Assembly (NCBI GenBank): GCA_964016885.1
Contig: OZ024742.1
Coordinates: 308,326,001-308,390,000 of the forward strand
DNA from: Eledone cirrhosa
Taxonomy: Eukaryota
Direction of reading: 5' to 3'
Length of the DNA stretch: 64,000 bases
The notes under the pieces were generated by a model. The model ran no database searches. It was not told where the DNA came from and saw only the letters and a list, made by a program, of their open reading frames with translations. Every line of letters starts with the position of its first letter. The stretch's first letter is position 1. Made by a program: the position numbers and the translations under genes. This document shows positions 4,411-64,000 of the stretch, one piece after another.

Positions 4411-4456
4411 TTATCTTAAAATATATATATATACTTATCTTAATATATATATATAT

Positions 4457-4611
4457 AGGTACAAGTAAGACCCCGACGGCTGAGCTCAAGCCGTTTCGAC
4501 TTGAGCTCAGCCGTCGGGGTCTTACTTGTGCCTATTACCCACTCTACTACCCTAAGTATTGAGTACTTTGGTGCGTTATGGTCCACCTGGTTCCATACCA
4601 CTTTTCCTTCG

Positions 4612-4613
<2 letters not shown>
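4457..4613 (+). mobile_element. Mini inverted-repeat element, family A, copy 1: 3' half of an HHR plus tail hairpin, flanked by (TA)n
   Basis: Short reverse arm 4457-4500 and long arm 4501-4613. The reverse arm reads GAAA-cggct..agccg-TC-ggggtc. Tail hairpin at 4541-4567. Confidence 0.85.
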
Positions 4614-4668
<55 letters not shown>

Positions 4669-5162: not shown

Positions 5163-5880
5163 TAGCCGAATTACCCGCGCCTTTCTGAGTTTCACACATT
5201 TTTTTTGTAAGAAAATGATGATTGATTTTAAATCAATGATATAATTTATTAAGAAAAAACTCTGCATTTCAATATTACTGGATGTATTATGCAATGCATG
5301 AAAAATTGGAGAACATTATTTTTTGTAATGGGCGGTGGATTGGCAGTATCGATAGAGGGTCGGATGCCATGCTTTCCAGCATAGTTACGTCCCTTTACGA
5401 TCTGAGTTCAAATCCCGCCGAGGTTGACTTTGCCTTTCATCCTTACGGGGTCGATAAAATAAAGTACCAGTAATGCACTGGTGAATTGCTGGCCTTGTGC
5501 CTAAAGTAGAAACAATTATTTTTTGTAATATATTAAATCAAAATTACATTATTAAATCTTATTCATATTTTGTCTCTTGTAAATCATTTTTTTTAAAATA
5601 TCAATTCAAAACTTAATCATTTCATTTTTGTTCAAATAATTAGTTTATTTGGGCTTCCAAACTTTCACTATAGAGGGTTTAACCCCATTAGGGTGTCTTA
5701 CTGTAATTGAAATTTGCTGAAATTTTGTGAATCGGCATCATATCTTGTCATTCACCTATGGTTTAAATTTCATATAAATCGAAGGGAAAAGATTTTCAGC
5801 GGCAGTTTGTACCACCGTGGAACCCTTCGATTAAAATGAAATATACTTATCCAAGTACCCTGGGCAATGTAGTTTCAGAA
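5161..5880. mobile_element. Possible Helentron/HINE-like non-autonomous element, with a SINE nested inside
   Basis: Starts ACTAGCCGAATTACCCGCGC after (TA)n, has internal AAATTTCATATAAATCG, and ends with a degraded ACCC-GGGCAA. Motif resemblance only. Confidence 0.3.
5331..5520 (+). mobile_element. tRNA-derived SINE (main family in the window)
   Basis: A box TGGCAGTATCG, B box GAGTTCAAATCC, core GCCTTTCATCCTTACGGGGTCGATAAAATAAAGTACCAG; TSD ATTATTTTTTGTAAT. Confidence 0.9.
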
Positions 5881-5882
5881 TA

Positions 5883-5967
<85 letters not shown>

Positions 5968-5969
<2 letters not shown>

Positions 5970-6058
5970 ATATTCTATCATACTCTGCTCTGTAAGAGTA
6001 TAGAGTGCTCAACCGGCATACCGGGTATGGAGGCATCTTAGCTACCATCAGACACACA
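5968..6058 (+). mobile_element. Solo PLE-type 3' tail between (TA)n tracts
   Basis: Bulged hairpin ACTC-TGCTCT-gta-AGAGTA-TA-GAGT-GCT at 5982-6009. Confidence 0.6.
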
Positions 6059-6219
6059 TATATATATAGGTATTAGAGGTGATCAGCAGTGATATATATG
6101 TAATATGTAATTAAATATGTATATGATGCTACACTGATTCTTTGTTCCTTTATATATATATATATAAAGGAACTAAGAATCAGTGTAGCATCATATATAT
6201 ATATACACATATATATACA

Positions 6220-6632
6220 TCCGGGAGAGATGACCCCTTAGCCTTTGTCAAGGCAGAATTCTAGGAGAAGGAAAACTCTGATATAACACCTGCAACCCTG
6301 ATGGTATCCAATGATGTTGACTTGTTCTTCTTTTTGGTAAATATCCTCTTGCTTAAGAGAGTGGGGCTGGCTTTGTGCAGTGCCTTTGCTCACTATAAAA
6401 GTTCACGGCACAGGCATTGCTTTATGTCTGGAGATCTCTCTGCACTTGTCGTCACATGGTACCATGGCCCCAGCACTGTGTGTCAATAATTGTCACAAGT
6501 GTACTGTTTGTACCAAAGTTTTCAAGTCGCTGGCTGGACTAAAAAGTCACACTTGTTCAGCGCATCGGTAGAGGTTCTCCTACATGGATATAAAGTAGAG
6601 GCCGTACTCGAAAACGAGTTGGCAGCCGCCAT
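6220..6632 (+). mobile_element. Internally deleted (bipartite) RTE-derived element: 5' UTR-like part, C2H2 finger and RTE 3' tail
   Basis: GAAGGAAAACTCTGA near the 5' end; CTVCTKVFKSLAGLKSH; tail GGCCGTACTCGAAAACGAG..GGCAGCC resembles the 3' end of the RTE at 58010-58040. Confidence 0.7.
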
Positions 6633-7367
6633 GTGTATATATATATGTATATACATCTATGTGTGTGTGTGTATGTAAAGGATCGCATGTTTAGAAGATT
6701 ATACTAAGGTATAGAACCTGCTTCTCCTTGTATAACAGAGATAGCCACAACTATGATCCTGATTCAATGTAACTGTTTTTTTTCTCTTCCTCTACATATA
6801 GATCTTGCTTCTCTCCTTTTCTTATCAGAGTTACAATATAACCATTATTGCTCTCTACTTATCTGAATGTAAATCCTGTTACTCTCTGTGTAGCTGTGTT
6901 CTAACGTACCAACTACTAACGCTATGACCCAACTACTATCGCTAGATATTGAGCCTGGTGTTTTGTGTAATACAGCTCTAATGTTACGTTTACAATGGAC
7001 ATGAGCCAGTCTAACATTTATCTCTGATACTTAACAGGGTTATAAAAAAAACTACAGCATCTCGGATCCTTGACCCAATATAACCGTTCCCTGTTTATGT
7101 TTAGATATACACCCTCATTCTTCTCTTTGCATGCTTTCTTTGTCTTTAGAATTTCTAATAAAGATTCTTTTCCTTTTTTCAATAACTCAGCAGTTCTATT
7201 ATTGTTAATTTCAGCATCTTCTCCAACTTTAGGCCTGGAAGCAGCAATATATAAACGGTTTCTCTTTACAACAGTATTTGCCATTATGACAATATTTGGA
7301 ATTGGAAAATATTTAACTCTTTCATACCTGACTCTTTAATAGGATTAAGACTAGACAAAAAAAACAT

Positions 7368-7551
7368 TAATTGTTTCTACTTTAGGCACAAGGCCAGCAA
7401 TTACCCAGTGCATTACTGGTACTTTATGTTATCGATCTCGTAAGGACGAAAGGCAAAGTCAACCTCGGCGGGATTTGAACTCAGATCGTAAAGGAACGTA
7501 ACTATGCTGGAAAGCATGGCGTCCGACCCTCTACCGATACTGCCAATCCAA
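7368..7551 (-). mobile_element. tRNA-derived SINE (main family)
   Basis: Near-identical reverse complement of 5331-5520. Confidence 0.9.
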
Positions 7552-8230
7552 TGAAATCTTTCTTCTTTTCTTTCTCATCTTTCTCTTTCTTTCGATCTTA
7601 CCTCTCTCCATATTCCTTTACATTACTACACTGGTTTCATTCAGATGTTGCCTGTAACCATCTCTCACCATTGAGTCTATGTATTAACTCTGCTTGGCAC
7701 ATCGCCACTCAATCCTAACATCTACGTATTTTATCAATCTAGCGTACTAACGTTCTCTAACATATCTAACGACTACACTTTTCATTTAAATTCTGTCTTA
7801 TGTGTTTAATACATCAACAACACGATATGTTTGAAGGTAGCCTCTGAAAACGTTTCTAAATGTATCCGAAAAGCATGCTCAAAAGAATCATATTTTTGGT
7901 GGTTTTTGTTTCTTTTGCTAAGGTGTCTTATTTTGCAAATTAACACTGTATCATATGAATTCCCGTGTGCCGACATTTATGATAATAGCTAATTTCCTGG
8001 AGCAAGATTTCTTAGCCTCCTGCATTCGTCACATACCGTTTTCTATTATTTGCGTGCAAAACTTGTAAAACGTGTAAATGCGACACACACACACACACAT
8101 ACACACACACACATACACACACACACACATACACACACACATATATATATATAATTAAAAGATCTGAGGCCATAATATATATATATATATATATATAATT
8201 AAAAGATCTGAGACCATTATATATATATAT

Positions 8231-8408
8231 AACGAAGGAGTTGTGGCAAGGAACCAGATGGACCATAACGCACCAGAGTACTCAATACTTAGGGTAGTAG
8301 AGTGGGTAATAGGAACAAGTATGACCCCGACGGCAGAGCTCAAGCCGTTTCGACGGCTATTTCAGCTGTCAAAACGGATTGAGCTCTACTGTCGGGGTCA
8401 TACTTGTT

Positions 8409-8411
<3 letters not shown>
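8231..8411 (-). mobile_element. Mini inverted-repeat element, family A, copy 2
   Basis: Long arm on minus 8231-8365, short arm on plus 8366-8411, (TA)n on both sides. Confidence 0.85.
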
Positions 8412-8451
<40 letters not shown>

Positions 8452-26930: not shown

Positions 26931-26980
<50 letters not shown>

Positions 26981-27314
26981 TTTTGAAAAGTATCTATATT
27001 TGAAGTTCTTTTTAAACTTTAATTAGTTACCTACCTAGCTGTGTGTGCTTACACTCGTTACAAATTATCCGCTGTGATTGTTTCATACTCGTTCATATAT
27101 ATATATATCTATCTATATATATATATATAGAGAGAGAGAATTTAGTATATCTACTAACATATGCGTACAGATGTACGCTAATGCTAGCAAATACACAGGT
27201 TATGTCATAGTACCTAGGTGGTTCAATGCAGGAGGATGCAGAACAATAATATAAAAGACGTAAAATAAGAAAATTAAAATTTTTTTTTTTTTAAATTAAC
27301 TTACTAAAATGTTC

Positions 27315-27396
27315 ACTCCAACTAATTAGTTTCGGCAATGGGATAAAGACAGTTACGTAATTTAACTGTCGAGAATTCATTGCGTCATCAGGGAGT
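27315..27396 (-). ncRNA. Type-I hammerhead ribozyme motif
   Basis: actcc-CTGATGA-c-gcaatg..cattgc-c-GAAA-ctaattag-TT-ggagt; predicted GUU cleavage. Confidence 0.85.
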
Positions 27397-27807
27397 CTAT
27401 TCTCAGCTAAGTCTCCAGGCAATGCGCGGACACTGGGGACTCATATAAAAATAATAATAATTTAGTAGATGAAACAGCTAGCGGGGACTGGATTCCATGC
27501 ACTGAAAAGCTCGCTGTCTCTGGTCAAGTGGCTGATTCTAAAGAACCAATCACGTGACACTGAGGCTAGTCGGTAGGAGTGGGATGGTAAGATGACAGAA
27601 GCCTACTATCACAATTTTTTTTAAAATTAACTTACTAAAATTTTCACTCCTTGATTGATTCCTTAGAATCAGCCACTTGACCAGAGACAGCGAGCTTTTC
27701 AGTGCATGGAATCCAGTCCCCGCTAGCTGTTCCATCTACTGAATTATTATTATTTTTATATGAGTCCCCAGTGTCCGCGCATTGCCTGGAGACTTAGCTG
27801 AGAATAG

Positions 27808-27889
27808 ACTCCCTGATGACGCAATGAATTCTCGACAGTTAAATTACGTAACTGTCTTTATCCCATTGCAGAAACTAATTAGTTGGAGT
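27808..27889 (+). ncRNA. Type-I hammerhead ribozyme motif
   Basis: Inverted copy of 27315-27396, with palindromic stem III CTAATTAG. Confidence 0.8.
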
Positions 27890-27949
27890 GAAAATTTTAG
27901 TAAGTAAGTTAATTTAAAAAAAAAATTTTTTTAATTTTCTTATTTTACG

Positions 27950-28302
<353 letters not shown>

Positions 28303-29071
28303 GTATATATATATATATATATCAATCGATTTCTAGTTAATATAAATGCTCGGATGTATTCATTGGAAACTTTGAGCATATTCTACAGAGGTTATGGCGC
28401 ATGTTTCTCAGATATGACATCCTTAATTTAATTTTGGCTATATATACGGCTCCTTAATTGTAGAACTAACTTAGTTGAAAGGACTTGGCTGCTATATCTA
28501 GCTGTCGATAATCCTATTCACGCCACTGGGATGACGCTGGTACGATGTATGTATTTTTTGTAAAAACGCGACAGATCTGCATTTGCTGTGTAAACACAGA
28601 TAGTTAAATCTTCTCCTTTGCTGACGATTCGGATTTAACTACTGTGATTTACCGACTGATGGTGAAATATTTTTCTTTATTTAATGAAATATATTCAAAG
28701 GTGTTTAATCCTTTTTAAATGGTATCTATATTTGAAGTTCTCGTTAAACTTTAATTAGTTACCTTCCTAGCTGTGTGTGCTTACACACTTTACAGATTAT
28801 CCCCTGTGATTGTTTCATATGTTTATTTTATATATATATACATATATCAATCGATTTCTAGTTGATATATATATATATTGCTTACGTCAAGTGAATGCTT
28901 ATATATTGCTAAATCTTGTAATATTTAAACACATATATGAGCCCGCCCGAGGTGAAGATGAAGACCGTAGGGAGAAAGGTAAGAAATAGAATTTGAGTCC
29001 ATGCCGCTTCTTGATTTGCTTTCCTATTATTACATATATATATATATTTGTATATGTATATATACATCTAT

Positions 29072-34800: not shown

Positions 34801-35196
34801 GAATATGAGTTGCTTTCTGTTTTAATTCATTGTATCCATCAACCATGTGAAATTTTATACCAGAATAAGAATCACTATTTTTTTGTTCATTGTAACACTC
34901 AACAATAAGCTGAACATTTATGATCAGATATAGAAATATTATTTCCTCCCTCGGTAAAGTGTTTAATTGATGTTTAACATCGAACTAGAAAATAGAGTTG
35001 ATTTAATTTAAAACAGCTATTTATATATATATATTGTTATACTTTGGGAGGGTCATGTTGACAATAAGAAACACACGCACCAGTTGCTTTCACTTCAATT
35101 TATTATATATTTATAAATTTATAAATTTACAAATTTACAAACTTATAAATTTCTGGTTGGTTGGTTGGTTCCACAACCAGATAGTTGTTTATATAT

Positions 35197-35241
35197 AGTC
35201 ATAGTCCTTTCGTCACACACTCTGTGACCTCTTCAGTGACT
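35197..35241 (-). ncRNA. Minimal type-I hammerhead motif
   Basis: agtca-CTGAAGA-g-gtcac..gtgac-GAAA-ggac-TA-tgact. Confidence 0.7.
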
Positions 35242-35801
35242 GGGGATTCCTTTCTTCGTTTCTGTGCCTTTCCTTTCTTCTATCCTACGCCATTTTGTTT
35301 CTGTGTGTGTGTTGTGTGCTCAGTTTGCGCATGCGCCACATCCGGGTGTCTGTGTGTGTTTGTGTTCATTTATCTATTTGTTTATTTATTTATTTATTTA
35401 TTGTTGGTTGGTTGTTTGTTCTATGTGTGTGTGTGTTTTCATTTTGTCCTGTGTGTGTTTTCATTTTGTGTGTGTTTTCATTTTGTCCTTAATTGTAAGT
35501 TGTTTGTTCTATGTGTGTGTGTGTTTTCATTTTGTCCTTAATTGTAAGTTGTGATGTTGCTGTTCCACTCATATTTGAAAACACACACAGGACAAAATGA
35601 AAACACACACACACATAGAACAAACAACCAACCAACAATAAATAAATAAATAAATAAATAAACAAATAGATAAATGAACACAAACACACACAGACACCCG
35701 GATGTGGCGCATGCGCAAACTGAGCACACAACACACACACAGAAACAAAATGGCGTAGGATAGAAGAAAGGAAAGGCACAGAAACGAAGAAAGGAATCCT
35801 C

Positions 35802-35846
35802 AGTCACTGAAGAGGTCACAGAGTGTGTGACGAAAGGACTATGACT
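35802..35846 (+). ncRNA. Minimal type-I hammerhead motif
   Basis: Inverted copy of 35197-35241. Confidence 0.7.
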
Positions 35847-36066
35847 ATATATAAACAACTATCTGGTTGTGGAACCAACCAACCAACCAGAAATTTATAA
35901 GTTCGTAAATTTGTAAATTTATAAATTTATAAATATATAATAAATTGAAGTGAAAGCAACTGGTGCGTGTGTTTCTTATTGGCAACATGACCCTCCCAAA
36001 GTATAACAATATCGGTTTCAACACACGATTTCAGATAAAGAATCTTGCTAAACAAATTCAGAAACG

Positions 36067-45716: not shown

Positions 45717-45763
<47 letters not shown>

Positions 45764-45768
<5 letters not shown>

Positions 45769-46370
45769 CTTTCATATTTACATAACGCGAAATGGAAGAA
45801 ATAGAAACACAGCTGTACCATTTTCTTTCCTTAGTAAGAATTATTTAAATATAAATGCATTTCTTTATTTCTGATTTGTCGACGTAGCATGACGGAAGCA
45901 CTAGGTCCAGAGTTTGGACGTTTGAACACACAGCATCACAGATTAGTCGAGGGAAATTTACTAAGAGCTTAATTGCTGCGCTGTTCAATTCAACAAACTA
46001 ATATATATTCATATATGCTAACGGATTACATGGAATTATAACTACGTTATAGACCCTACCACGAAAGGTAGACCACATTGAGTAAATATATAATCCATGT
46101 AATCCGTTCGCATATATGTATATATATTAGTTTGTTGAATTGAACAGCGCAGCAATTAAGCTCTTAGTAAATTCCCCTCGACTAATCTGTGATGCTGTGT
46201 GTTCAAACGTCCAAACTCAGGACCTAGTGCTTCCGTCATGCTACGTCGATAAATCAGAAATAAAGAAATGCATTTATATTTAAATAATTCTTGCTAAGGA
46301 AAGAAAATGGTACAGCTGTGTTTCTATTTCTTCCATTTCGTGTTATGTAAATATGAAAGTAATATATATA
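45764..46370. repeat. About 280-bp-arm near-perfect inverted repeat with a roughly 45-bp spacer, at a (TA)n tract
   Basis: 45764-46047 versus 46091-46367; no canonical HHR found. Confidence 0.9.
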
Positions 46371-48541: not shown

Positions 48542-49966
48542 CAAATAGAACATAATTCATTGTTTCTTTTCCTCGTGTTCGTTCTATCATTGCGAAACAT
48601 TCGTTTATCTGCACGTACGCGAATGTGTGTGTGCGTATGTCTGTGCACGTCTGTGTGCTGGTATATGTCTGTAATTGTGTGTGCGTGTATGCGTGTGTTT
48701 GTGTATGTGTGTGTGCTTGTATATGCGTATGTAAGAATACAGTATATGTTCTTTTTTCATTTCTTTGTGTGTGTGAGCACGTGTGTTTTTCTATGTGTGC
48801 GGGTATATGTGTGTGTCTATGCGCGCGTGTGTGTGCATATGTATGTGTGTGTGCTTGTATATGCGTATGTACGTATTCCAGTGTGCAAGAATACAGTATA
48901 TGTTCTTTGTTCGCCACCTGGTGGTGAAAACGCAGGTTATGTTTCCTTAATTTTCTTTTATTAACCAAGTAATTAATCTAATGGCGTTCATTTCTTAATT
49001 GAAAACTTACTAAATTAACCTAAAGTTACTAATTAATCTTAAACTGTCACTTCTCCTATGATTGTTTTTATTTGATTAATCCCCATGACTTTATATTACT
49101 AGAACATTAGATGTTGTGGCATTGATGCCATTCTATAGAAAGTACTTGACGTAAAGAAAATGGTTGTCACTGAAGCAAAACATTTTGTCTTAAATTACTT
49201 TGCAAGAAATTTACATTTTGTTTTATTGTTATCACGACAGATGTGTGTATAATGCTATACACTGACTTCTCTTGTTTAGACACAAAGAAATACGAGAAAC
49301 TGATATTCTCTCACATGCATGCATTTCTCTAGGGCATGGCCAATATAAGTAGAGTGAAAAGAGCTTCAATTGTTGATGGAAAATATATATCAAAGACTCA
49401 GATTGAATATACGTATCGAGTAATATATTGGTGCAAAGTTACCACGTATATTCACTTCGTAACTTTCATACAATATTACGTATCATAAATTAATGAATTT
49501 GTGATTAAATACAAAACTCTATACAATAGACAAGAAATGATGACTGTTTGGCGAGGTCAGCGTCGTTGGTTCACAAGGAATCATGACCGAATATATCCCT
49601 CATTGAACCATGTATCAATAAATTACATACACGAGCGACGAAAATATATAAGCACTGAATTGTTTGCTACTTTTTTGAGGGAGGGGGTTGTACATAAGTT
49701 ATAATACAGTGGGAGTGGTTACAAGAGTATATAAGATATTGGGTAAAATTTTGATTAATGAAATCACGCTCAGTTCCTTTTTCTTTCTATTCAATCTGTG
49801 AATCTCTTTATCTCTCCACCTCTCTCTCTCTCTCACTCTCTTTCCATCTCCCTCTTTCTGACACCCCCACACACTTCTTTATTCAAATATAGAGAGATAC
49901 CCTGAGCAAAAGTATCACACACAAATGCTTGACAATATATATATGTATATATATATGTATATATAA

Positions 49967-50181
49967 AACGAAGGAGGTGCGGTAAGGAACCAGATGGACC
50001 ATAACGCACCCGAGTACTCAATACTTAAGTTAGTAGAGTGGGTAATAGGAAAATGTATGACCCCCGCGGCAGAGCTCAAGCCGTTTCGACGGCTATTTCT
50101 GGACTAAATTAGAATTCTAATTTAGTCCAGAAATAGCCGTCGAAACGGCTTAGCTCTGCCGTCGGGGTCATACATTTTCCT
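49967..50181 (-). mobile_element. Mini inverted-repeat element, family A, copy 4 (perfect palindromic centre)
   Basis: Centre CTGGACTAAATTAGAATTCTAATTTAGTCCAG; hairpin at 50013-50039 on minus. Confidence 0.85.
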
Positions 50182-51875: not shown

Positions 51876-51995
51876 GTGAATATATATATATATATTTATA
51901 TATATATATATACTCATAAAACAACAACATAAGATATATATATATATATATATATAATATATAAGAACAAAAGATGGTTAAAAAAGTTCCATGTA

Positions 51996-52062
51996 TTTTA
52001 TTATGCGCATTTCAAAAACAAGTATCATCATGCAATAATATTTGTGTTTTCATCAGATAAAA
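51996..52062 (-). ncRNA. Type-I hammerhead motif
   Basis: Inverted copy of 52190-52256. Confidence 0.8.
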
Positions 52063-52189
52063 CAGGAAGACATGATATGAAGGTTAAAAAACACTTGTGG
52101 ATAGTGCAGTTTTAAATCAACATATGATATATTGATTTAAAATTGCACTATCCACAAGTGTTTTTTAACCTTCATATCATATCTTCCTG

Positions 52190-52256
52190 TTTTATCTGAT
52201 GAAAACACAAATATTATTGCATGATGATACTTGTTTTTGAAATGCGCATAATAAAA
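52190..52256 (+). ncRNA. Type-I hammerhead motif
   Basis: ttttat-CTGATGA-aaac..gtttt-t-GAAA-tgcgca-TA-ataaaa; palindromic stem III. Confidence 0.85.
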
Positions 52257-52428
52257 TACATGGAACTTTTTTAACCATCTTTTGTTCTTATATATTATGT
52301 ATACTCCAGTCCTACAAACTGTAGAGTGCTTCTTATCCGATATCTGCATTGCTTTATTGTACTACAATAAAACTCACCTTCTACATATATATATATATAT
52401 ATATATAGTAATAATAATAATAATAAAT

Positions 52429-54179
52429 TTACAATGAAGCTCTTGCTCGAAGTGGATTTGTCGATAAGGTAGCATATACAGAGTACGAAAATAGACCTAG
52501 AAGAAATAGATCCCGTCGCATTTGTTGGTATAACTCACCATATAATATGGAGGTGGCCACACCATTAGCTAAGATCTTTCTTTCCCCTATTACGAAGAAT
52601 GTTTCCCCTACACATAAATATAGTAACATTTTTAATAGAAATACTTTTAAAATTTCTTACTCTACGACTCCTAACCTTGCACATAACATCACAGCTCCAA
52701 ATTTAGCTAAACTACCTAGCCGTAGGAACACGTGCAACCCTGTAGTTAATACTAACTGTAATTGTAGGAATCGGGTTGATTGCCCCCTATCCGGGAAATG
52801 TCTCTCTAGCAACATTGTCTACAAAGGTAAGGTTGTAACACCCACGTCCCGTAGGGCCTACATAGGGTTAACCGCCAATAGTTTCAAGCAGCGTCTTTAC
52901 ATGCATACCCATTCTTTTCGTTACCCTCTAAGAAGGAATATGACGTCACTTTCAGCTTATATCTGGAGTCTAAAAGACAACCAAACCCAATATAAGTTAC
53001 ACTGGGAGATCCTAGCTAGGGCTAGATCGTATAACGGAAATAAAATACCATGGGACCTCTGCGCCGCTGAGGCCCTGGAAATACTCTACGCCACAGACCA
53101 CATCTTAAACAAAAAATATGAGGCAATTTCGCTTGTAAACATAAATTGCACAAAACTTTCCTGTATTACAGTCCCACGTTATACCCTAACGGATAGTACG
53201 ATCTATACGTGGATATTTTACGTCTTGATGTGGGAGTTAAGTATATGTTTTGTTTATACCTTTACTTATTTGCATAGGTAAGTATATATTACCCGTATTT
53301 TTTGTGAAGGTGCGTATACCGTCTCGTACGTATATTTGATTGTTATGGCGTATAATTTTTTTATATATTCTGGTACTTATGGTTCGGCTATGTGTATACG
53401 GGAGTTTTGCGTTTGTGTGAGTATGCTGGTTCGTACGTATGTAGGGCGTGTGTATATGTGTACTTCATGTTTTGGTTGACTTACGTCTCCGAACATTCGT
53501 GTATTTACATGTAGGTATGTGTGTGCGCTTGTTATATACGTATTTATTTATTTATATACGTTTATATAATTATTTATTTATTTGTATACACGCACTCACA
53601 CACACACATATTTATATGTGCGTGGTTTTATTTACCTATGGTAGTTTTTGCATATGCTTGAGTATGTACGTATTTGTTTGCGTGTATGTATTTATTTATT
53701 TCTATTACTTCTGTATTGTATTTATTTACTTTGTTCTTAACTCTGTAGCGGAGATTCATTCGGTCTCCTAGTTAGAATTTTAGTCTACGACTTCTGCTAT
53801 ACCATTTACGTGGTTTTGCCTTTGCGTGCTATTGTTCTCCACGGTCCACATATGACGTATTATCTTCGTTTTTTTTTTTCGTTCATTGCCAGAGAACGTC
53901 TCTATTGCACCACCTAAGAGAACATTAGTCTACGACCTCTTTTATACCATAAACGTGGTTCTGTCTTTGCGCGTAATTGTTTTTCACCGCTCCTATTATA
54001 TTCGTTTTTTCTTGTTCTTTGCCAGCGAACGTTTCCACGAACCAAAGTATCGTCTTCCTGTCTTCCTCCGATTGCAACGTTTTTTGAAATATCCAGTTCT
54101 GCGTTTACAGATTGACTTTGTTAGTTTCAGAAGATCCCGTTAAGGGTGAAAGCAGCGATTTTTTGCTTAAACTTTAATC
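52429..54179 (+). mobile_element. 5'-truncated PLE: linker, GIY-YIG ORF, long 3' UTR and terminal HHR
   Basis: YNEALARSGF..RRICWYNSPY, IFNRNTFKISYS, CNCRNRVDCPLSGKCL, NIVY..YIG..FKQRLYMH..SF, DLCAAE. Confidence 0.92.
54123..54173 (+). ncRNA. Hammerhead motif with a U4-to-A change at the end of the PLE 3' UTR
   Basis: agttt-CAGAAGA-t-ccc gttaa ggg-t-GAAA-gca..tgc-TT-aaact. Confidence 0.65.
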
Positions 54180-54819: not shown

Positions 54820-54873
<54 letters not shown>

Positions 54874-54914
54874 TTAAATAAAAGTCAAATGATTAAAATT
54901 TAGCTTCGTTTATT

Positions 54915-54969
54915 ACTGCTATATATATTTCAGTGACAGCCATCTTTGGCTGTGACATCTTCAGGCAGT
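54915..54969 (-). ncRNA. Type-I hammerhead motif
   Basis: actgc-CTGAAGA-t-gt c acagcc..ggctgt c ac-t-GAAA-tatata-TA-gcagt. Confidence 0.85.
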
Positions 54970-57087
54970 TTGCATTAGTATGGTATAGACAAGTACATAT
55001 GTTGTTTAGGTGTATGATATTGTCAATACTCTGATATGCCCAGTTCCTTGTTGGGTTGTTAATTCACAGGGGAACTGGAGTCATATGAATTCAAACAAAC
55101 GAATTTCAGTGTCACAGGTCCCCTTCTCCTCTCATTGGTCAGTTATTAGAACATTCCTCATTCTAAGTGTTGTTATTGTTGGAGTTAGCTTAAAAATTGA
55201 TAACATGGTAGAAGGGACAAGGTGTTAAAGGAACAAAATAACAAAATAACAAAAAAAGTGTCAAACTTCCCATTGTTCAGTTCTGAGAGCATTCCTCAGT
55301 CAGAAGTCTATAGAATTCTTTCTGGGGTGAGGCTCCCTGTCGTGTTTTTGCCTGCTATTGTTCCGTACATTTGACCTCCACCATTATTTTGGTACTGTTG
55401 TTGTTGTAGTGGTCAGCTTATATCTTGCTGCTGCTAACAGTTTAGAAGTATCCAGTTTGTGTTTTTTCTTCATCCCTCCCGCCACCATCGTAGTGGTGGT
55501 GGTGGTGGGGGGGGGGGGTTATTTCATGTATATGAAGAAATATATGGCAATAAATGAAGAAAACAGAAAATAAATAAATAATATAATAAAGTAATTAATA
55601 TAATTTGTGTAATTTGAAAATAAATAAATAAATAGAAAATAAAGAATAAAGAGTAAATGAGAGATTGGTGAAAAAGTAATGATAATGTATATGGAGAGGT
55701 GAGAAATAATGTAGGATAAAGTGTGTGTGTGTGTGTGCTATAACCAATCTCAAGGTCAGAATATGTTGGATAGATTGGTATGAGACAAGATGTTAAGATG
55801 AGATATTCAATGTGTTTGTGTTATAGTCTATCTCAACTTAAAATAAATATAAGGTGATACAGTAAAGAGGGCAGAAAACAAAAAACAAATTAATAAAGAG
55901 AAATCAAGATTTAAGATTGGAACTTGAAAGTCAGAAATCTGGTAAATTAAAAGTGTTTGTGTTATAGATGTTGGCCAAATTATTATGGCTGTGTCCGATT
56001 CTATCTCTAGGATATCATGGTGTCTGCTCTGCCTGGGTTGTTCCCTGTGGCTTGAGGGGAGTTCACAACCTAGGGTGTTGTTATTGCCCATATAGCTTGA
56101 GGGAGGTCTGGCCGAGAGGTGTTTTCATGTTCTGTAGAAGTCCCTATAGCTTGAGGGGAGTTCACATCTTCTTGTGTTGCTACTGTCCATATATCTTGAG
56201 AAAGGTCCCGGCTCTAAGGTGTCTGCATGTCCCGAAGAAGTCGGTTCTGAGGTTTATCAGGCCGCTTTCACCTCTTAGTATCTCGAGGGTCTCGTTCAGT
56301 CATATTTTGCATATGCAAGATCCCCCTTTATCGGGTGGTACTTTCCTGATTATGTACCAGGCCAGAGAGTATGGGGTCCTGTCCAGCTTAAGCTTCCAGA
56401 TCAGGTCGGAGAGAGCTGTGCTTTTCCTTTTGGCCTCCTTCTTGAATTAATGGTGATGGCTGTACCAGCGGTCCTTAAAGCTCGTTGATGTGGCTCCTAT
56501 GTAGAGGTTAAAACCCCCAACTCCGAACACCTCTACATAGGAGCCACATCAACGAGCTTTAAGGACCGATGGTGGCGGGAGGGATGAAGAAAAAACACAA
56601 ACTGGATACTTCTAAACTGTTAGCAACAGCAAGATATAAGCTGACCACTACAACAACAACAGTACCAAAATAATGGTGGAGGTCAAATGTACGGAACAAT
56701 AGCAGGCAAAAACACTACAGGGAGCCTCACCCCAGAAAGAATTCTATAGACTTCTGACTGAGGAATGCTCTCAGAACTGAACAATGGGAAGTTTGACACT
56801 TTTTTTGTTATTTTGTTATTTTGTTCCTTTAACACCTTGTCCCTTCTACCATTTTATCAATTTTTAAGCTAACTCCAACAATAACAACACTTAGAATGAG
56901 GAATGTTCTAATAACTGACCAATAAGAGGAGAAGGGGACCTGTGACACTGAAATTCATTTGTTTGAATTCATATGACTCCAGTTCCCCAGTGAATTAACA
57001 ACCCAACAAGGAACTGGGCATATCAGAGTATTGACAATATCATACACCTAAACGACATATGTACTTGTCTATACCATACTAATGCAA

Positions 57088-57142
57088 ACTGCCTGAAGAG
57101 GTCACAGCCAAAGATGGCTGTCACTGAAATATATATAGCAGT
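57088..57142 (+). ncRNA. Type-I hammerhead motif
   Basis: Inverted copy of 54915-54969. Confidence 0.85.
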
Positions 57143-57331
57143 AATAAACGAAGCTAAATTTTAATCATTTGACTTTTATTTAACTTTATTTTACACTACT
57201 CCGGAGTAACCAAACCAACCTGAGCACTTCGTCGAGTGCTCCAGCCTGCATACTGAGGTGTTGGTATACAACCAACATAAACTCAAAATCTATATATATA
57301 TATATATATACATACATATATATATACATAT

Positions 57332-58007: not shown

Positions 58008-61000
58008 TGATGGCTGCCCCCTCGTTATCGAGTATGGCCATTGCACGAGGAGAAAAGAAAATATAAAAAAATTAATAAATAAATAAAAAAAAAAAATAAA
58101 AAAAAAAATAAAGAAAATATATATATATATATATACACACATACATATACATATATACACACATATATATATATACAAACACATATACATTAATAACAAT
58201 AATAATAATAATAATAATAACAATAATAATAACGACAACAACAATAATAATATACATATACATATATATATACACATACACGCACACACATAGACATATC
58301 TATACACACACACACACACGATAGCAACTAACAGTGCTGCGATCGAATGTGGCTTTTTAGCCCAGCCAATGATCTAAAATGTCTTGCACAGAGTCGGCAA
58401 CCAAAACATTCACTGGGAATAGTCGGTTGTGGTTGGAGTTCATGTACTTTTGCATGTCGCTTGAGCCCTCCTGCTGATTTACATTCTCTACCACATGTTT
58501 GGCAAGCATGATGAGTAGCATCTCCAACAGCAGCCTGGTAGTCAACCACTAGTCTTACTTTATGACTGCGAAGATGACTTTCGAGTCCAGCTTTGCTTAG
58601 GCAGAGTCTCGCACAGACGCTGCATGACAGCACCATAGGAGGACCCTCGCCGTCTGGAAGTGCAACAGCAATGCCCTTTCTCACATCCCGCTTTACTTTC
58701 TCGTATGCGATTCGAGATGCCTCAAAGGCAACTTTTCCTTCATATACAGTCTTTCTCCATTTATTACGATCAGCAGCAATATATTTTCCCATGTATCAGC
58801 AGAGATGTTAGCGTCTTTCAAAGAGGCTTTCAAGGAATCCTTATACCTCTTTTTTGGTTTATGTGGCGGTCGTTTTCCTTTAACCAATTCTCCATAAAAG
58901 AGTTGTTTTGGTATTCTAGAATCCTTCATCCTGGCAAGGTGACCACTCCAACGGAGTCGTTGCTTAAGCACAAGAGCTTCTATACTGTCACACATAGAGC
59001 TTTCCAAAATCTCGACATCACTGATGTGATCCCTCTAGTGAACGCCATGGATCCGTCTGAGACACATCTGATGGAAACGCTCCAATTGCTTAAGATGGTG
59101 TCGATATGTGACCCAGGTCTCGCAGGCATAAAGAAGACAAGAGAGCACACATGCCCTGTACACCTTTACCTTTGTCCTCCTGCATATGTCTCGCCGACCC
59201 CAGAGTCGCCTTTCTAGCTTTCCGAAAGCATCCCTTGCTTTCCTAATCCTAAGTGAGATTTCACTGTCAAGGTTGCTGTATCGATTGGCAGTGCTTCCCA
59301 GGTAGACAAGCTGATCAACCTCTCCAAGTCGTCTACCATACACATAGATATTTGGTTAAGTGTACTGCTTACCAGGGGCAGGTTGGTACATGACGAAGGT
59401 TTTCTTGAGACTGACAGTCAGACCTAAGGCAGTGCAAGCGTCAGAAAATGCATTCAAAATGTGCTGCATATCACTCTCTGTGTGCGCTACGAGATCGCAA
59501 TCATCTGCATACAAGAGGTCTCTTATGATTGATGTAAATACTTTTGTCTTTGCAGCAAAGCGCCTGATGTTAAATATGCTGCCTGAGGTTCGATATCAGA
59601 TGTAAACACCATGCTCGCAATTCCTGAATGCAATACAGAAAACCATTGCAAAGTATATTGCAAACAGGGTCGGTGCTGGAATATCCCCCTGTTTCACTCC
59701 ATTTTTTATTGAGATAGGCTTCGACATGTTACCTCCGACATTAACCCAAGCCTTCATGTCGTCATGGAAAGACCTAACTAAAGCAAGGTACTTATCAGGG
59801 CAACCAAATTTCTGGAGAACCTTCCATAATGCATCCCTGTTAACAGTATCGAAAGCTTTTATCAGATCGACAAAAACCTGATACAGATTCAAGCCTTGTT
59901 CCATGCACTTCTCCTAGAGCTGTCTAGCTGAGAAGATCATATCAGTAGTGCCGCGTCCAGCACGAAAACCAGATTGACATTCAGGAAGAACACATCTGCA
60001 ATGTGTGTCAGCAGACGGTCCAGAAGCACCCCACATAAAACTTTCCCTACGACAGAAAGCAATGATATACCTCTGTAGTTCCCACAATCAATCCTGTTAC
60101 CCTTTCCCTTGTACAAGACCACCATTACTGCATCTCTCCAGTCCTCAGGTATGGATTCATTAGCCCATATCCTGCCAAACAAAGAGTGAAGATGTTACAG
60201 GAGTCCCTCACCACCATATTGTAGGAGCTCAGCATGTATGCCATCCATACCTGGAGATCTTCCACTGTTCAGCTTCGAAATAGCCACTGCAACCTCCACA
60301 CGCGTCGGAGGTTCTGCGAGAGCTACTTTCACAGGACTTTCTGGAATGAGATTGAGGAAATCTTCACTGACGACAGACGGCTGATTCAAAAGATCATCAA
60401 AGTGCTCTCGCCACCTTCGTAGAATTCCTTGTGAGTCACGAAGAACTTCTTTGCCATCTTTGCTGCGAAGCGGTGTCACCAGAGAAGAAGACAGTCCATA
60501 AACCTCACGCAAGAGACTGTACAACAGCTTTGTGTTATTGGAATTTGACGCAGTTTGTATCTCATCAGCCTTCTCACTCCACCACTGATCCTTCATCTGA
60601 GAAAGACTCCGCCTAACATGTGATTTTACATCCTTGAGTTCCTCATGCACGTATTCCTCTCCTGTGGTTTTGCCGTCAAGTAGCGTGACAGAACATGCCT
60701 CTTATCAGCCAACAAGTCTTCTATATGTAGATCATTCTCATTAAGCCAGTCCTGATGTTTTCTCTGCACCAATCCCAGAACACGCCTGCCTACATCATAA
60801 ACCGACTTTTTAAGGGTCGGCCAATCCTCACCAAGATCTGCAGTCTGCATCTCTTCTTCCAATGTCCTCTTCACGTTTTTATCCTTAAGACGAGCAGCAT
60901 TCAATCTTTTGGGCAGGGCAACACCAGGAGCCCTGATTTTACGTTTAGTGATTAGTTTCACTTTTGCGCGTACCAGGCGGTGGTCCGTCCAGCACTCAGC

Positions 61001-61513
61001 TCCACGAAGAGCACGAACACACTGCACATCCTGTCTGTCACGCATCCCGACTAGGACGTAGTCCAAAAGATGACAATCCTTAGATGCAGGATGCATCCAT
61101 GTGGTCTTGAATTTGTTCTTGTTGGAACATGGTGTTGGTAACACACAGATCCAGCTCCTCACACATCTGCAGCAGGAGCACACCATTGTTGTTACACTTT
61201 CCCACCCATGCCTTCCGATTACATTCCATGTGTTAAAATCCCTACCCACTCTAGCATTAAAGTCATCAAGCAGGATGACTTTGTCTGCCTGAGGGATATT
61301 TCTTAAAACACCTTTCAAGGCATGGTAAAAGGACACTTTTTCTTCATCGACAGAATTCATAGTTGGAGCATACACACTCACCAGGGTCGCATATCTTCCT
61401 TTGTCCAGCGGAATTCTCATGGACATAAGACGCTCACTAATCCCTACTGGGAAATCTTCTAATTTATTCACAAGTACAGTCTTAACAGCAAATCCTACCC
61501 CAGCCTCTCTTCT
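58008..61513 (-). mobile_element. RTE-BovB-like LINE (partial APE endonuclease, RT, three C2H2 fingers), disrupted by frameshifts and stops
   Basis: GVGFAV, SVYAPT, DFNARVG, LDY, TDH; NYRGISLLS; VDLIKAFDTVNR; GVKQG; LYADD at about 59500; LRWSGHLARM; fingers in ORF 58328..58792. Confidence 0.96.
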
Positions 61514-61518
61514 GATAT

Positions 61519-61551
<33 letters not shown>

Positions 61552-61593
61552 TATATACATACATATACATACATACATACATACATACATACA

Positions 61594-61701
<108 letters not shown>

Positions 61702-61713
61702 CATATATATCTA

Positions 61714-61783
<70 letters not shown>

Positions 61784-61813
61784 TATAGATAGATAGATAG
61801 ATAGATAGATATG

Positions 61814-64000
61814 TTTCTTTATTAGCCACAGGGGCACAACAGAAGGGGGCAAATACAAAGGGGGGAGTTTACATACAATAAAAACGTGTAAAATGTCATC
61901 ACAAATGTAATTTAAAAAGTTAGTCGATTTACCCCAATAGAGGAAGACAGTTTATATGGGTAACACATACCCCCGAAAAAATGTGCAACCCTCATCCCCA
62001 GCAGTACGAAGAGTTTGTACTCCTTTCCTCTCCTCCTCCTTTTCCTCAACCTACAGGCTGATATAGAGAGAAGGCCCATTCACTCGGGCCATTCTCGCCA
62101 CTTTCACCCACCTTTCATAAAACTTGCTGGGGTACAGCACCTCTCTCTCCATCCTGATTCTTCTTCCAAAGTGGTATTTGAAAAAAAGAATCAGTTGTTG
62201 GCCGGAGAGAAAGGTGTCTGACCTCAGCCCTTTCAACCTTGTCCACCATACAACCTCTTTCGCCATAGCTATCACACAAAGGAAAACGGCCTCTCCTTCG
62301 TTTTTGAAGGAGGGTGGCGGTTTGATCATGACAATGGACTCGGTGGTCAACTGGATTGGTCCCACCCGCGACAATAGTCGTTCTAAATAGCCCTACAGGT
62401 CAGTGACGCCCGGGCAGTGTATGAATGCGTGCGCGACGGTTTCTTCGTCTCGCACGCACCTCGGACAGATCTTTTTTGCAGGGTCCCTGCCCGGGCGCCC
62501 ATGTCTGTAGAGCTTGTCTCGAACTGGTAGAGTTCCTCGGTAGCACTGCCAGGCCAGGGACTTTTGGAAGTTGTCCATCGGTCCCGGGCGGAAGGTCCTA
62601 CCGAACAGACTGGCCAGTTCATCTTCCTCCACGCCTAGAGTTTCACCGAGCGCGTCGTCGCACTTGCTGCGGACCAACCCTCTATAGAATGACGAAGTGG
62701 AGTCTCCACTGATCGCCGGGTCCGCCTGCCAGAGGGCTGTGAGCGCCTGAGCACATTCGATGTGCCAGTCGCCCATTTTCCTCGGTCTCTGCTTGACCCA
62801 GGACTGCAGCTCGGTCAGCGAGACGAGTCGTGGGAAGGCTCGCCTCACGAACGGGGCCCACACCGGTTGTCCGGTGAGGAATACGTAGAGATGCCGCAGC
62901 CTGAGCGCGTGTTTGCGCATCGTCAACCACGGCATCCCCAGCCCTCCGTTAGAAGGGTGTTGGCAGCAGATGGATCTTCTTACCAAAGGAGCCCGCCTCT
63001 TCCAAAGAAATCGGAAGAGGGCGCGCTCCATTTTGGCGAGCGTTTTGGCTGGACAAGGCACGACGGTCAAGCGGTAGTAGATGGCGGACGCTATAAAAGT
63101 GTTCGCCACCTCCGCTCGACCTTTCAAGGATAGTTTGCACTCGGCCCACTTCTGGGTGAGTGCAAACACCTTGGCCGTCACTTCGTTCCAGTTCTTCTCC
63201 ACCTGGAGGTCCGGACCAAACCAGACCCCGAGCAGCTTTACCGGTCCTTCCGTCCAGCGTCCGACGACGCTATCGGAAGGCATCGGTCTGCCTCTCCACG
63301 ATCCGAGTTGCAAACCGATGGACTTGTCCCGGTTCAGCTTCGCTCCTGTGAGACGTTCGTATTCCTTTAGTAAGGTGCCGACTTCCTCGATTTGCGAGGC
63401 GCTCGACACCATTACTGTCACGTCGTCGGCGTAGGCCGACGCCGCTTTCCGCAGTCCCGGTTCCAGAGGGATGCCCTGCAATAGCTCCAGCTTCCGCAGT
63501 AGTGGCTCGAGAGTCAGTACGTACAGAAGGGAGGAGAGAGGGCATCACTGTCGAATGGATCGCGTAATATGGAACGGCTCCGAGAGGTAACCGTTCACCT
63601 TGACCCTTGAGCAGATGTTGCTGTTGTGCATTGCAGCAATCCAGCCCCTGAACATGGGTCCGAAGCCTGCCGCCTCGAGCACCGCATCCAGGTAACGATG
63701 GTCAACCCTATCGAAAGCCTTAGACTGATCCAAGTTGATCAGGGCCCCACCGAAGCCGGGTTTACACCCTACCCTCTCTATGATGTATCGCATGAGGTGG
63801 AGGTTGTCGTGTATGGACCTGGTCGGGATCGCGCATGTCTGCGCTTCTCCCACCAGGTTCTCGACGACAAGCGCCAGCCTCTTTGCCAACACCTTGGCCA
63901 AAATCTGTAACTCTGTGTTTAGCAGAGTTATGGGCCGGAAGTTGCCTATGTCATCCCCCTTATTCTCGTCCTTCCTGATTAGTGTGACCACGCCCCCGGT
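61814..64000 (-). mobile_element. L1/Tx1-clade LINE ORF2 (RT plus zf-RVT), young, continuing past the window end
   Basis: NFRPITLLN, LDQSKAFDRVDH, AYADD, SLKGR, GGLG, CPRC..ETVAHAFIHC; AATAAA near the 3' end followed by (ATCT)n. Confidence 0.95.

What the first reader, a model, noticed from the sequence alone, without database searches (positions are those of the whole stretch)
27140..27957. Element 5' end falls exactly at its own predicted hammerhead cleavage site
Seen in sequence: the minus arm begins at 27650 with GGAGTGAAAATTTTAGTAAGTTAATT, the sequence that follows the predicted GUU site of the HHR at 27315-27396. Homology stops precisely at the scissile position: 27645-27650 CACTCC is followed by TTGA rather than AACT. 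The cleavage-to-cleavage unit is about 331 nt and non-coding. Inference: the template was a ribozyme-processed RNA, which is genomic evidence that the minimal HHR was active and that this is a retrozyme-like non-autonomous PLE derivative.
Basis: partly seen in the sequence, partly recalled or inferred. Interest (0 to 1): 0.75.

Follow-up and report, generated by a model that had tools for sequence, protein, structure and literature searches.

The report
Two-armed retrozyme insertion at ribozyme cut
This is one back-to-back insertion of an abundant, roughly 545-base non-coding jumping repeat with a predicted self-cutting RNA fold; one piece starts exactly at the predicted cut, and genome-wide, copies stop about five times more often at or just after that site than just before it, which likely records occasional self-cutting (or blockage) of the RNA while a Penelope-type enzyme copies it.

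Summary
The base-level observation holds: family homology ends at 27650, the first base after the predicted GUU cut. The 331-nt unit does not hold. The family unit is about 525-555 nt; here a 36-nt piece (unit 1-36) is joined to unit position 254, a junction seen once in the genome. The family has thousands of arms in (TA)n. In 108 of 109 two-armed insertions one arm has a short 3' end (+70) and the other a long one (+185), the Penelope 'tail' pattern. Most arms read through the site (2059 intact against 27 clean starts). Starts run at about 1% per position from +16 down to -2, then fall to about 0.17%. The site is therefore the edge of a hot zone, not a lone spike. When one arm starts there, its partner starts nearby in 18 of 37 cases, against 10 of 67 in controls. 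Best reading: a non-LTR retrozyme moved by Penelope-like enzymes, with a minority of templates cut or blocked at the ribozyme. Reverse-transcriptase stalling at the fold is not excluded. One copy is joined to a coding Penelope-like fragment. The scan noted similar elements before on other DNA (unreviewed).

The parts
27615..27650 (-). 36-nt 5' piece = family unit positions 1-36, starting at the first base after the predicted cut; joined to unit position 254 (about 217 nt skipped)
   Evidence: 36/36 identical to a natural unit in L027; differs from both local copies; junction unique
27651..27651 (.). single base at the head-to-head junction that fits neither arm (A on the minus strand); likely a non-templated addition
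   Evidence: sequence; A precedes GGAG in 21 of 27 pattern hits (T was excluded by the pattern) and in 10 of 10 '+1' starts
27140..27613 (-). long arm: unit 254 through one hammerhead to the long 3' end (about +185)
27140..27249 (-). 'tail': about 110 nt present only on the long arm, between the two fixed 3' ends
27315..27396 (-). type I hammerhead motif, minus arm; predicted cut between 27320 and 27319; C.C mismatch at the base of stem II in this copy
27320..27331 (.). 12-nt palindrome (stem III region), ending exactly at the cut; predicted to drive a double hammerhead
   Evidence: present in 249 of 279 distinct motif strings; dimer -53.8 against 2 x -22.5 kcal/mol
27652..27957 (+). short arm: unit 315 through one hammerhead to the short 3' end (about +70)
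27808..27889 (+). type I hammerhead motif, plus arm; predicted cut between 27884 and 27885
27095..27139 (.). left (TA)n/(GA)n target tract
   Evidence: sequence
27958..28009 (.). right (TA)n target tract; no target-site duplication can be read
   Evidence: sequence

Best explanation
This is one head-to-head, two-armed insertion of an abundant, roughly 545-nt non-coding hammerhead repeat (a non-LTR retrozyme) that was likely pasted into a (TA)n tract by a Penelope-like reverse transcriptase/endonuclease, and its 36-nt piece likely ends at 27650 because the RNA being copied was cut, or blocked, at its hammerhead. Shown: the anatomy, unit length, two fixed 3' ends used one per arm, read-through of most sites, and a step in 5' ends at the cut.
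For: Unit 543-550 nt in a natural tandem array. At least 4736 arms in the wider family. Stem II and its inner hairpin covary: 7 pairs changed on both sides, 95% of cells paired, 0/500 shuffles as high, slid controls 32-47% (16 chosen variants, related sequences). 108 of 109 two-armed insertions pair one short with one long end, 1 long-long, 0 short-short. Step: 10/19/10 starts at +1/-1/-2 against 28 over 11 upstream positions. Partner arm starts in -2..+19 for 18 of 37 cut-site arms against 10 of 67 control arms (p=4e-4; per event 15 of 33, p=1.4e-3), while same-site partners in controls are 1 of 23 and 1 of 44. Arms of one insertion differ by 2.5% (median, n=46) against 8.4% between insertions. 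L330: a short family arm joined head-to-head to a 5'-truncated coding element ending in that element's long end. Two start sites = tail and both-strand priming were shown in vitro for an anole PLE (PMC11167929).
Against: Most arms read through: 2059 intact against 27 clean starts. Starts at +3..+16 are as dense (about 1% per position) as at the cut (24 of 30 inspected rows were true ends). A control site at -81 also shows a pile-up: 34 of 91 ends in two edge positions, partly an edge artefact. The base of stem II is C.A in 262 of 279 motifs instead of the usual G-C, and GUU lets A14 pair with U17; both are predicted to weaken catalysis. PMC11167929 found the hammerhead dispensable in vitro and no RNA reads starting at the cut. 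No monomer homology was found to the two coding PLE-like families sampled, so the driver is not identified. The chimera is a single case.
Confidence: 0.6

Rival explanations
1. Same element and same Penelope-type insertion, but the 5' ends near the site come from the reverse transcriptase stalling at the folded ribozyme, plus AT-rich microhomology joining, with no cutting.
For: The hot zone +1..+16 matches the 3' strand of the predicted extended stem I. The 12-nt palindrome duplex (-10.8 kcal/mol) begins at -1. Ends are spread over +3..+16. Another pile-up lies at -81. Core features are non-ideal.
Against: Independent stalls would not make both arms end together, unless both meet one shared dimer duplex. 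Exact palindromic junctions centred on the cut recur (L033, L034, L035/36, L040, L045, L051, L056). No comparable step in the GC-rich control (maximum 4 of 26 per position; 30 of 79 loci analysed).
Confidence: 0.27
2. One reading: the template was a fully processed 331-nt cut-to-cut monomer.
For: The distance from 27650 to the next cut is 331 nt. L041 has a similar arrangement (+1..about +48, then unit 255).
Against: The family unit is about 545 nt. The junction is unique. The arm continues 185 nt past the second site, which a linear monomer cannot template.
Confidence: 0.04
3. The 36-nt piece is a templated filler copied from nearby DNA during junction repair, and its start at +1 is chance.
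For: Short inverted or duplicated fillers are common at family junctions (L005, L022, L053, L330).
Against: The piece matches another genomic unit 36/36 but differs from both local copies. Background start rate is about 0.17% per position.
Confidence: 0.09

Closest known systems
Metazoan non-LTR retrozymes (Cervera and de la Pena 2020, PMC7229834: passages and Discussion read; Li, Clavereau, Pollet, bioRxiv 10.64898/2026.07.22.740005: part 1 of 5 and passages read)
   Same: Non-coding tandem unit with one type I hammerhead per unit, GC below 45% (37%), thousands of copies, mostly few units per locus, PLEs proposed as drivers.
   Different: Unit about 545 nt (longer than the 170-400 nt studied experimentally, within the preprint's 51-972 bp). 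Long branched stem II and C.A at its base. Insertions are two-armed and inverted with fixed 3' ends, which the passages read do not describe. Expression, circles and cleavage are untested.
Endonuclease-bearing Penelope-like elements (Craig et al. 2021, PMC8557442, passages; Arkhipova et al. 2013, PMC3846280, passages; Frangieh et al. 2024, PMC11167929, parts 1-2 of 4)
   Same: Inverted 5'-truncated arm, tail often at one end only, (TA)n targets, hammerhead upstream of two fixed 3' ends, palindromes at inverted junctions.
   Different: No ORF. Tail about 110 nt rather than 30-40. Pairing of short and long ends is near-absolute here (108 of 109). A genomic step of 5' ends at the cut contrasts with the absence of RNA ends at the cut in the anole study.
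PLE minimal hammerheads (Cervera and de la Pena 2014, PMC4209133, parts 1-2 of 4 read)
   Same: Short stem I (5 bp), long stem II, extra base after A9, palindromic stem III suited to dimers.
   Different: Lacks the conserved G10.1-C11.1 closing geometry (an extra A or C precedes G12); stem III palindrome is 12 nt.

Membership tests
non-LTR retrozyme | tandem non-coding unit with a type I hammerhead in each unit | tested here: met
non-LTR retrozyme | hammerhead fold kept by compensatory change | tested here: met
   (stem II 100% paired, 2 of 6 pairs changed on both sides; inner hairpin 5 of 6)
non-LTR retrozyme | canonical G10.1-C11.1 core closure | tested here: not met
   C.A in 262 of 279 motifs; a U.U mismatch there is described for an axolotl retrozyme (PMC7229834 passage), so this is not disqualifying
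non-LTR retrozyme | self-cleavage of the transcript | not testable with these tools
   only indirect genomic footprint
non-LTR retrozyme | abundant monomeric circular or linear RNA | tested here: inconclusive
   no RNA holder listed
PLE-type insertion | inverted 5'-truncated arm, one-sided tail, AT-rich target | tested here: met
autonomous PLE | RT plus GIY-YIG ORF | tested here: not met
   no ORF in the unit
derivative of a named PLE | homology to the pLTR of a coding PLE in the genome | tested here: inconclusive
   none to the two families sampled (30 and 29 loci); many other families were not sampled (69,524 candidates)

The most novel reading that the evidence does not exclude
The family is a fossil record of the Penelope insertion reaction. 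A dimeric enzyme always primes one strand at the short site and the other at the long site. The RNA is sometimes cut as a double hammerhead inside that complex, so both arms stop together. The same complex can carry a retrozyme RNA and a coding PLE RNA side by side (L330). This would be in vivo evidence that animal PLE-type hammerheads cut, and direct evidence that PLEs move retrozymes.
Probability: 0.3. Interest if true: 0.72.

Novelty: new member of a known kind. Interest (0 to 1): 0.44.

Why it matters
Two open questions are stated in the papers read: whether PLE-type hammerheads cut in vivo (PMC4209133, PMC8557442, PMC11167929) and whether PLEs mobilise animal retrozymes (PMC7229834). This family gives countable footprints for both: a step of 5' ends at the cut, paired ending of the two arms, a near-absolute short-plus-long rule, and one chimera with a coding element. 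It also names exact positions (+1, +70, +185) for an in vitro test. The single locus alone is an ordinary, slightly rearranged copy.

Tried and rejected
Rfam at gathering threshold: no match in the window. RNA runs: no RNA holder listed; no evidence either way. Contigs of 4 runs (one study, kind not on record): at 27612-27613 loose ends continue with the normal family sequence in all four runs; no listed piece bridged the locus junction, which is uninformative. A 331-nt family was rejected. Control at unit 254: only 2 hits and no denominator, so uninformative as a rate. The abundant coding family in the window (52427-53281) as parent: no DNA homology. A second coding family as parent: none. 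Clade assignment of these ORFs: Pfam gave nothing, PDB nothing, Atlas unavailable, homologues unnamed apart from PF26215/PF28514 accessions; calling them PLE-like rests on recalled motifs plus the description in PMC8557442. A first 3'-end classifier was too loose (15 long-long calls, most spurious) and was replaced. GTAA repeat state as a test of one versus two RNAs: discordant in 22 of 62, near random, not decisive. A spliced-intron explanation of the 37-253 skip was rejected: no GT..AG ends. Literature: 6 searches ran; none listed a paper reporting genomic 5' ends at a PLE or retrozyme hammerhead cut, but subscription papers and supplements were not seen.

Full report
OBSERVATION. The region holds two inverted arms (277-nt core, 95% complementary), each with a type I hammerhead motif. 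The minus arm begins at 27650 with the bases that follow the predicted GUU cut; 27651 matches neither arm. Both motifs fold with a 6-bp stem II carrying an inner hairpin (z -3.3 and -2.9). Rfam found nothing.

THE UNIT IS NOT 331 NT. In the own genome (3.0 Gb) no other match covered the whole 331 nt; long matches began at query 38-43 (40 of 1992 candidates scored). Upstream of that point other copies carry the normal family sequence. A natural array has periods of 543, 547 and 550 nt, and 31 distinct cut-to-cut stretches measure 481-555 nt. Against that unit the locus reads: 27650-27615 = unit 1-36, jump, 27613 = unit 254 through one hammerhead to about +185; plus arm 27652 = unit 315 through one hammerhead to about +70. 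The junction pattern is found only here. L041 has a similar but independent jump to unit 255. The 36-nt piece is identical to a unit in L027 and differs from both local copies, which fits an RNA origin better than local DNA copying (inference).

THE RIBOZYME FOLD IS SELECTED BUT IMPERFECT. In 16 chosen variants 95% of cells pair and 7 of 20 pairs change on both sides (related sequences, so the shuffle count is not a probability). Of 279 distinct motif strings, 249 keep the 12-nt palindrome, 261 the GUU triplet, and 262 have C.A at the base of stem II. Two copies fold as a double hammerhead-like dimer, 8.8 kcal/mol better than two monomers. PMC4209133 describes such PLE hammerheads as dimer-dependent and weak in vitro.

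INSERTION PATTERN. Arms end at one of two fixed TATAT-like points, +70 or about +185, against (TA)n. Of 109 distinct two-armed insertions recognised by end motifs, 108 pair one short with one long end. Those loci were chosen by 5' features or by similarity, not by 3' ends. A one-sided tail is known for PLEs (PMC8557442, PMC3846280), and PMC11167929 showed that it lies between two reverse-transcription start sites. Arms of one insertion are much closer to each other (median 2.5%) than to other insertions (8.4%), the partner being nearest in 23 of 46, so both usually come from one source.

DO 5' ENDS FAVOUR THE CUT? Read-through is the rule: 2059 intact sites against 27 hits with a clean start (2 of these are read-through variants on inspection). 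A window scan from -13 to +3 gave 151 hits; the first 100 were listed and fetched. Of 94 distinct rows 15 were dropped as indel or point variants (one of them, L039, was in fact a true +1 start). The 79 kept fall as +3:7, +2:5, +1:10, -1:19, -2:10, and 28 over -3..-13 (p=7e-11, or 2e-9 after removing duplicates by hand). Starts at -1 and -2 are T bases and can be +1 starts with an added A on the cDNA (inference). Scaled to about 2200 arms this is about 0.9% per position at the site and 0.17% upstream. Control at -81: 131 hits against 3565 intact; of 91 true ends, 34 sit in the two edge positions and 57 over 14 others, so lesser hot spots exist. A GC-rich control was flat (26 true ends in 30 of 79 loci). 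Downstream, 972 hits lack the GG at +1/+2 against 4736 that have it (wider family). In 30 inspected rows 24 were true ends spread over +3..+16, about 1% per position. So the cut is the upstream edge of an 18-nt zone where roughly a fifth of passing arms stop, not an isolated spike.

PAIRED ENDING. When an arm starts at +1/-1/-2, its inverted partner starts in -2..+19 in 18 of 37 cases, against 10 of 67 for control arms (p=4e-4, per event 15 of 33, p=1.4e-3; the narrower -2..+4 test gives p=0.005 per arm and 0.04 per event). Controls show no general symmetry (1 of 23, 1 of 44). Several junctions are exact palindromes centred on the cut with one A/T. This points to a limit shared by both cDNAs: one cut RNA, two RNAs cut together as a double hammerhead, or a shared dimer duplex that blocks both. 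The data cannot separate cutting from blocking, because the palindrome ends at -1 and the extended stem I covers +1..+14.

DRIVER. The window holds a fragment of an abundant coding family (52427-53281; 69,524 candidates; 709-aa open frame in L256) with motifs recalled as PLE-like; profile searches did not name it. It shares no DNA with the unit. In L330 a short family arm is joined head-to-head to a 5'-truncated member of a second coding family (52% identical to the first) that ends at its own long end. This obeys the short-plus-long rule across two RNAs. It is one case, and insertion of one element at the head of the other is not excluded.

VERDICT. A new member of the non-LTR retrozymes with Penelope-type insertions. 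Earlier unreviewed notes of this scan reached like conclusions on other elements; I read them after the counts were made. Papers seen: PMC11167929 parts 1-2 of 4 and passages; PMC4209133 parts 1-2 of 4; PMC7229834 passages and Discussion; PMC8557442 and PMC3846280 passages; bioRxiv 10.64898/2026.07.22.740005 part 1 of 5 and passages. No supplements were read; they may show such junctions.

Noticed in passing
window 52427-53281 (+): 3' part of a very abundant coding element (RT and endonuclease-like motifs recalled as Penelope-like); open frames of up to 761 codons elsewhere in the genome; two 3' ends about 95 nt apart in sampled copies.
   Followed up: partly
window 51949-52303: Near-perfect palindromic insertion of another family with a hammerhead-like motif on each arm (cores near 52196-52250 and 52056-52002); its centre is not at the predicted cut.
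   Followed up: no
window 28007-28215, 4455-4630, 8218-8413, 49950-50173: Tiny two-armed copies that are the 3' end of the coding family seen in L330 and L371-L399; short and long ends about 78 nt apart. Its 3' region looks like a hammerhead with stems and GAAA but no CUGANGA box.
   Followed up: partly
L330:2031-4860 (G000:C1:110735500-110743500): Chimera: short arm of this repeat joined head-to-head to a 5'-truncated coding element, with a small hairpin filler at the junction.
   Followed up: partly
long 3' ends across loci: The two TC units of the template are expanded to six or more in 70 of 201 long ends and never in 82 read-through sites; possibly reiterative synthesis at priming, or later microsatellite growth.
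   Followed up: partly
unit +16 to about +112 (window 27304 to about 27208, minus strand): GTAAGT ... pyrimidine-rich ... AG resembles a retained intron, as in Penelope pLTRs; the AG is kept across subfamilies.
   Followed up: no
unit about 283-288 (window near 27580, minus strand): CACUCC pairs with the first six bases after the cut in the predicted circular monomer fold and could block stem I.
   Followed up: no
L017, L020, L191, L206, L312: Several junctions pair one arm starting at -80..-92 with the other at +9..+15, positions that face each other across the extended stem I.
   Followed up: no
window 35031-36012, 45758-46370, 54868-57189, 5336-7550: Further large inverted-arm insertions, at least two abutting (TA)n; likely other Penelope-type families.
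   Followed up: no
window 26980-27087 and 28712-28819: A 108-nt direct repeat (91%) flanks the cluster on both sides.
   Followed up: no
window 58328-63544 (-): Fragments of two LINE-like reverse transcriptase or endonuclease frames (by recalled motifs).
   Followed up: no
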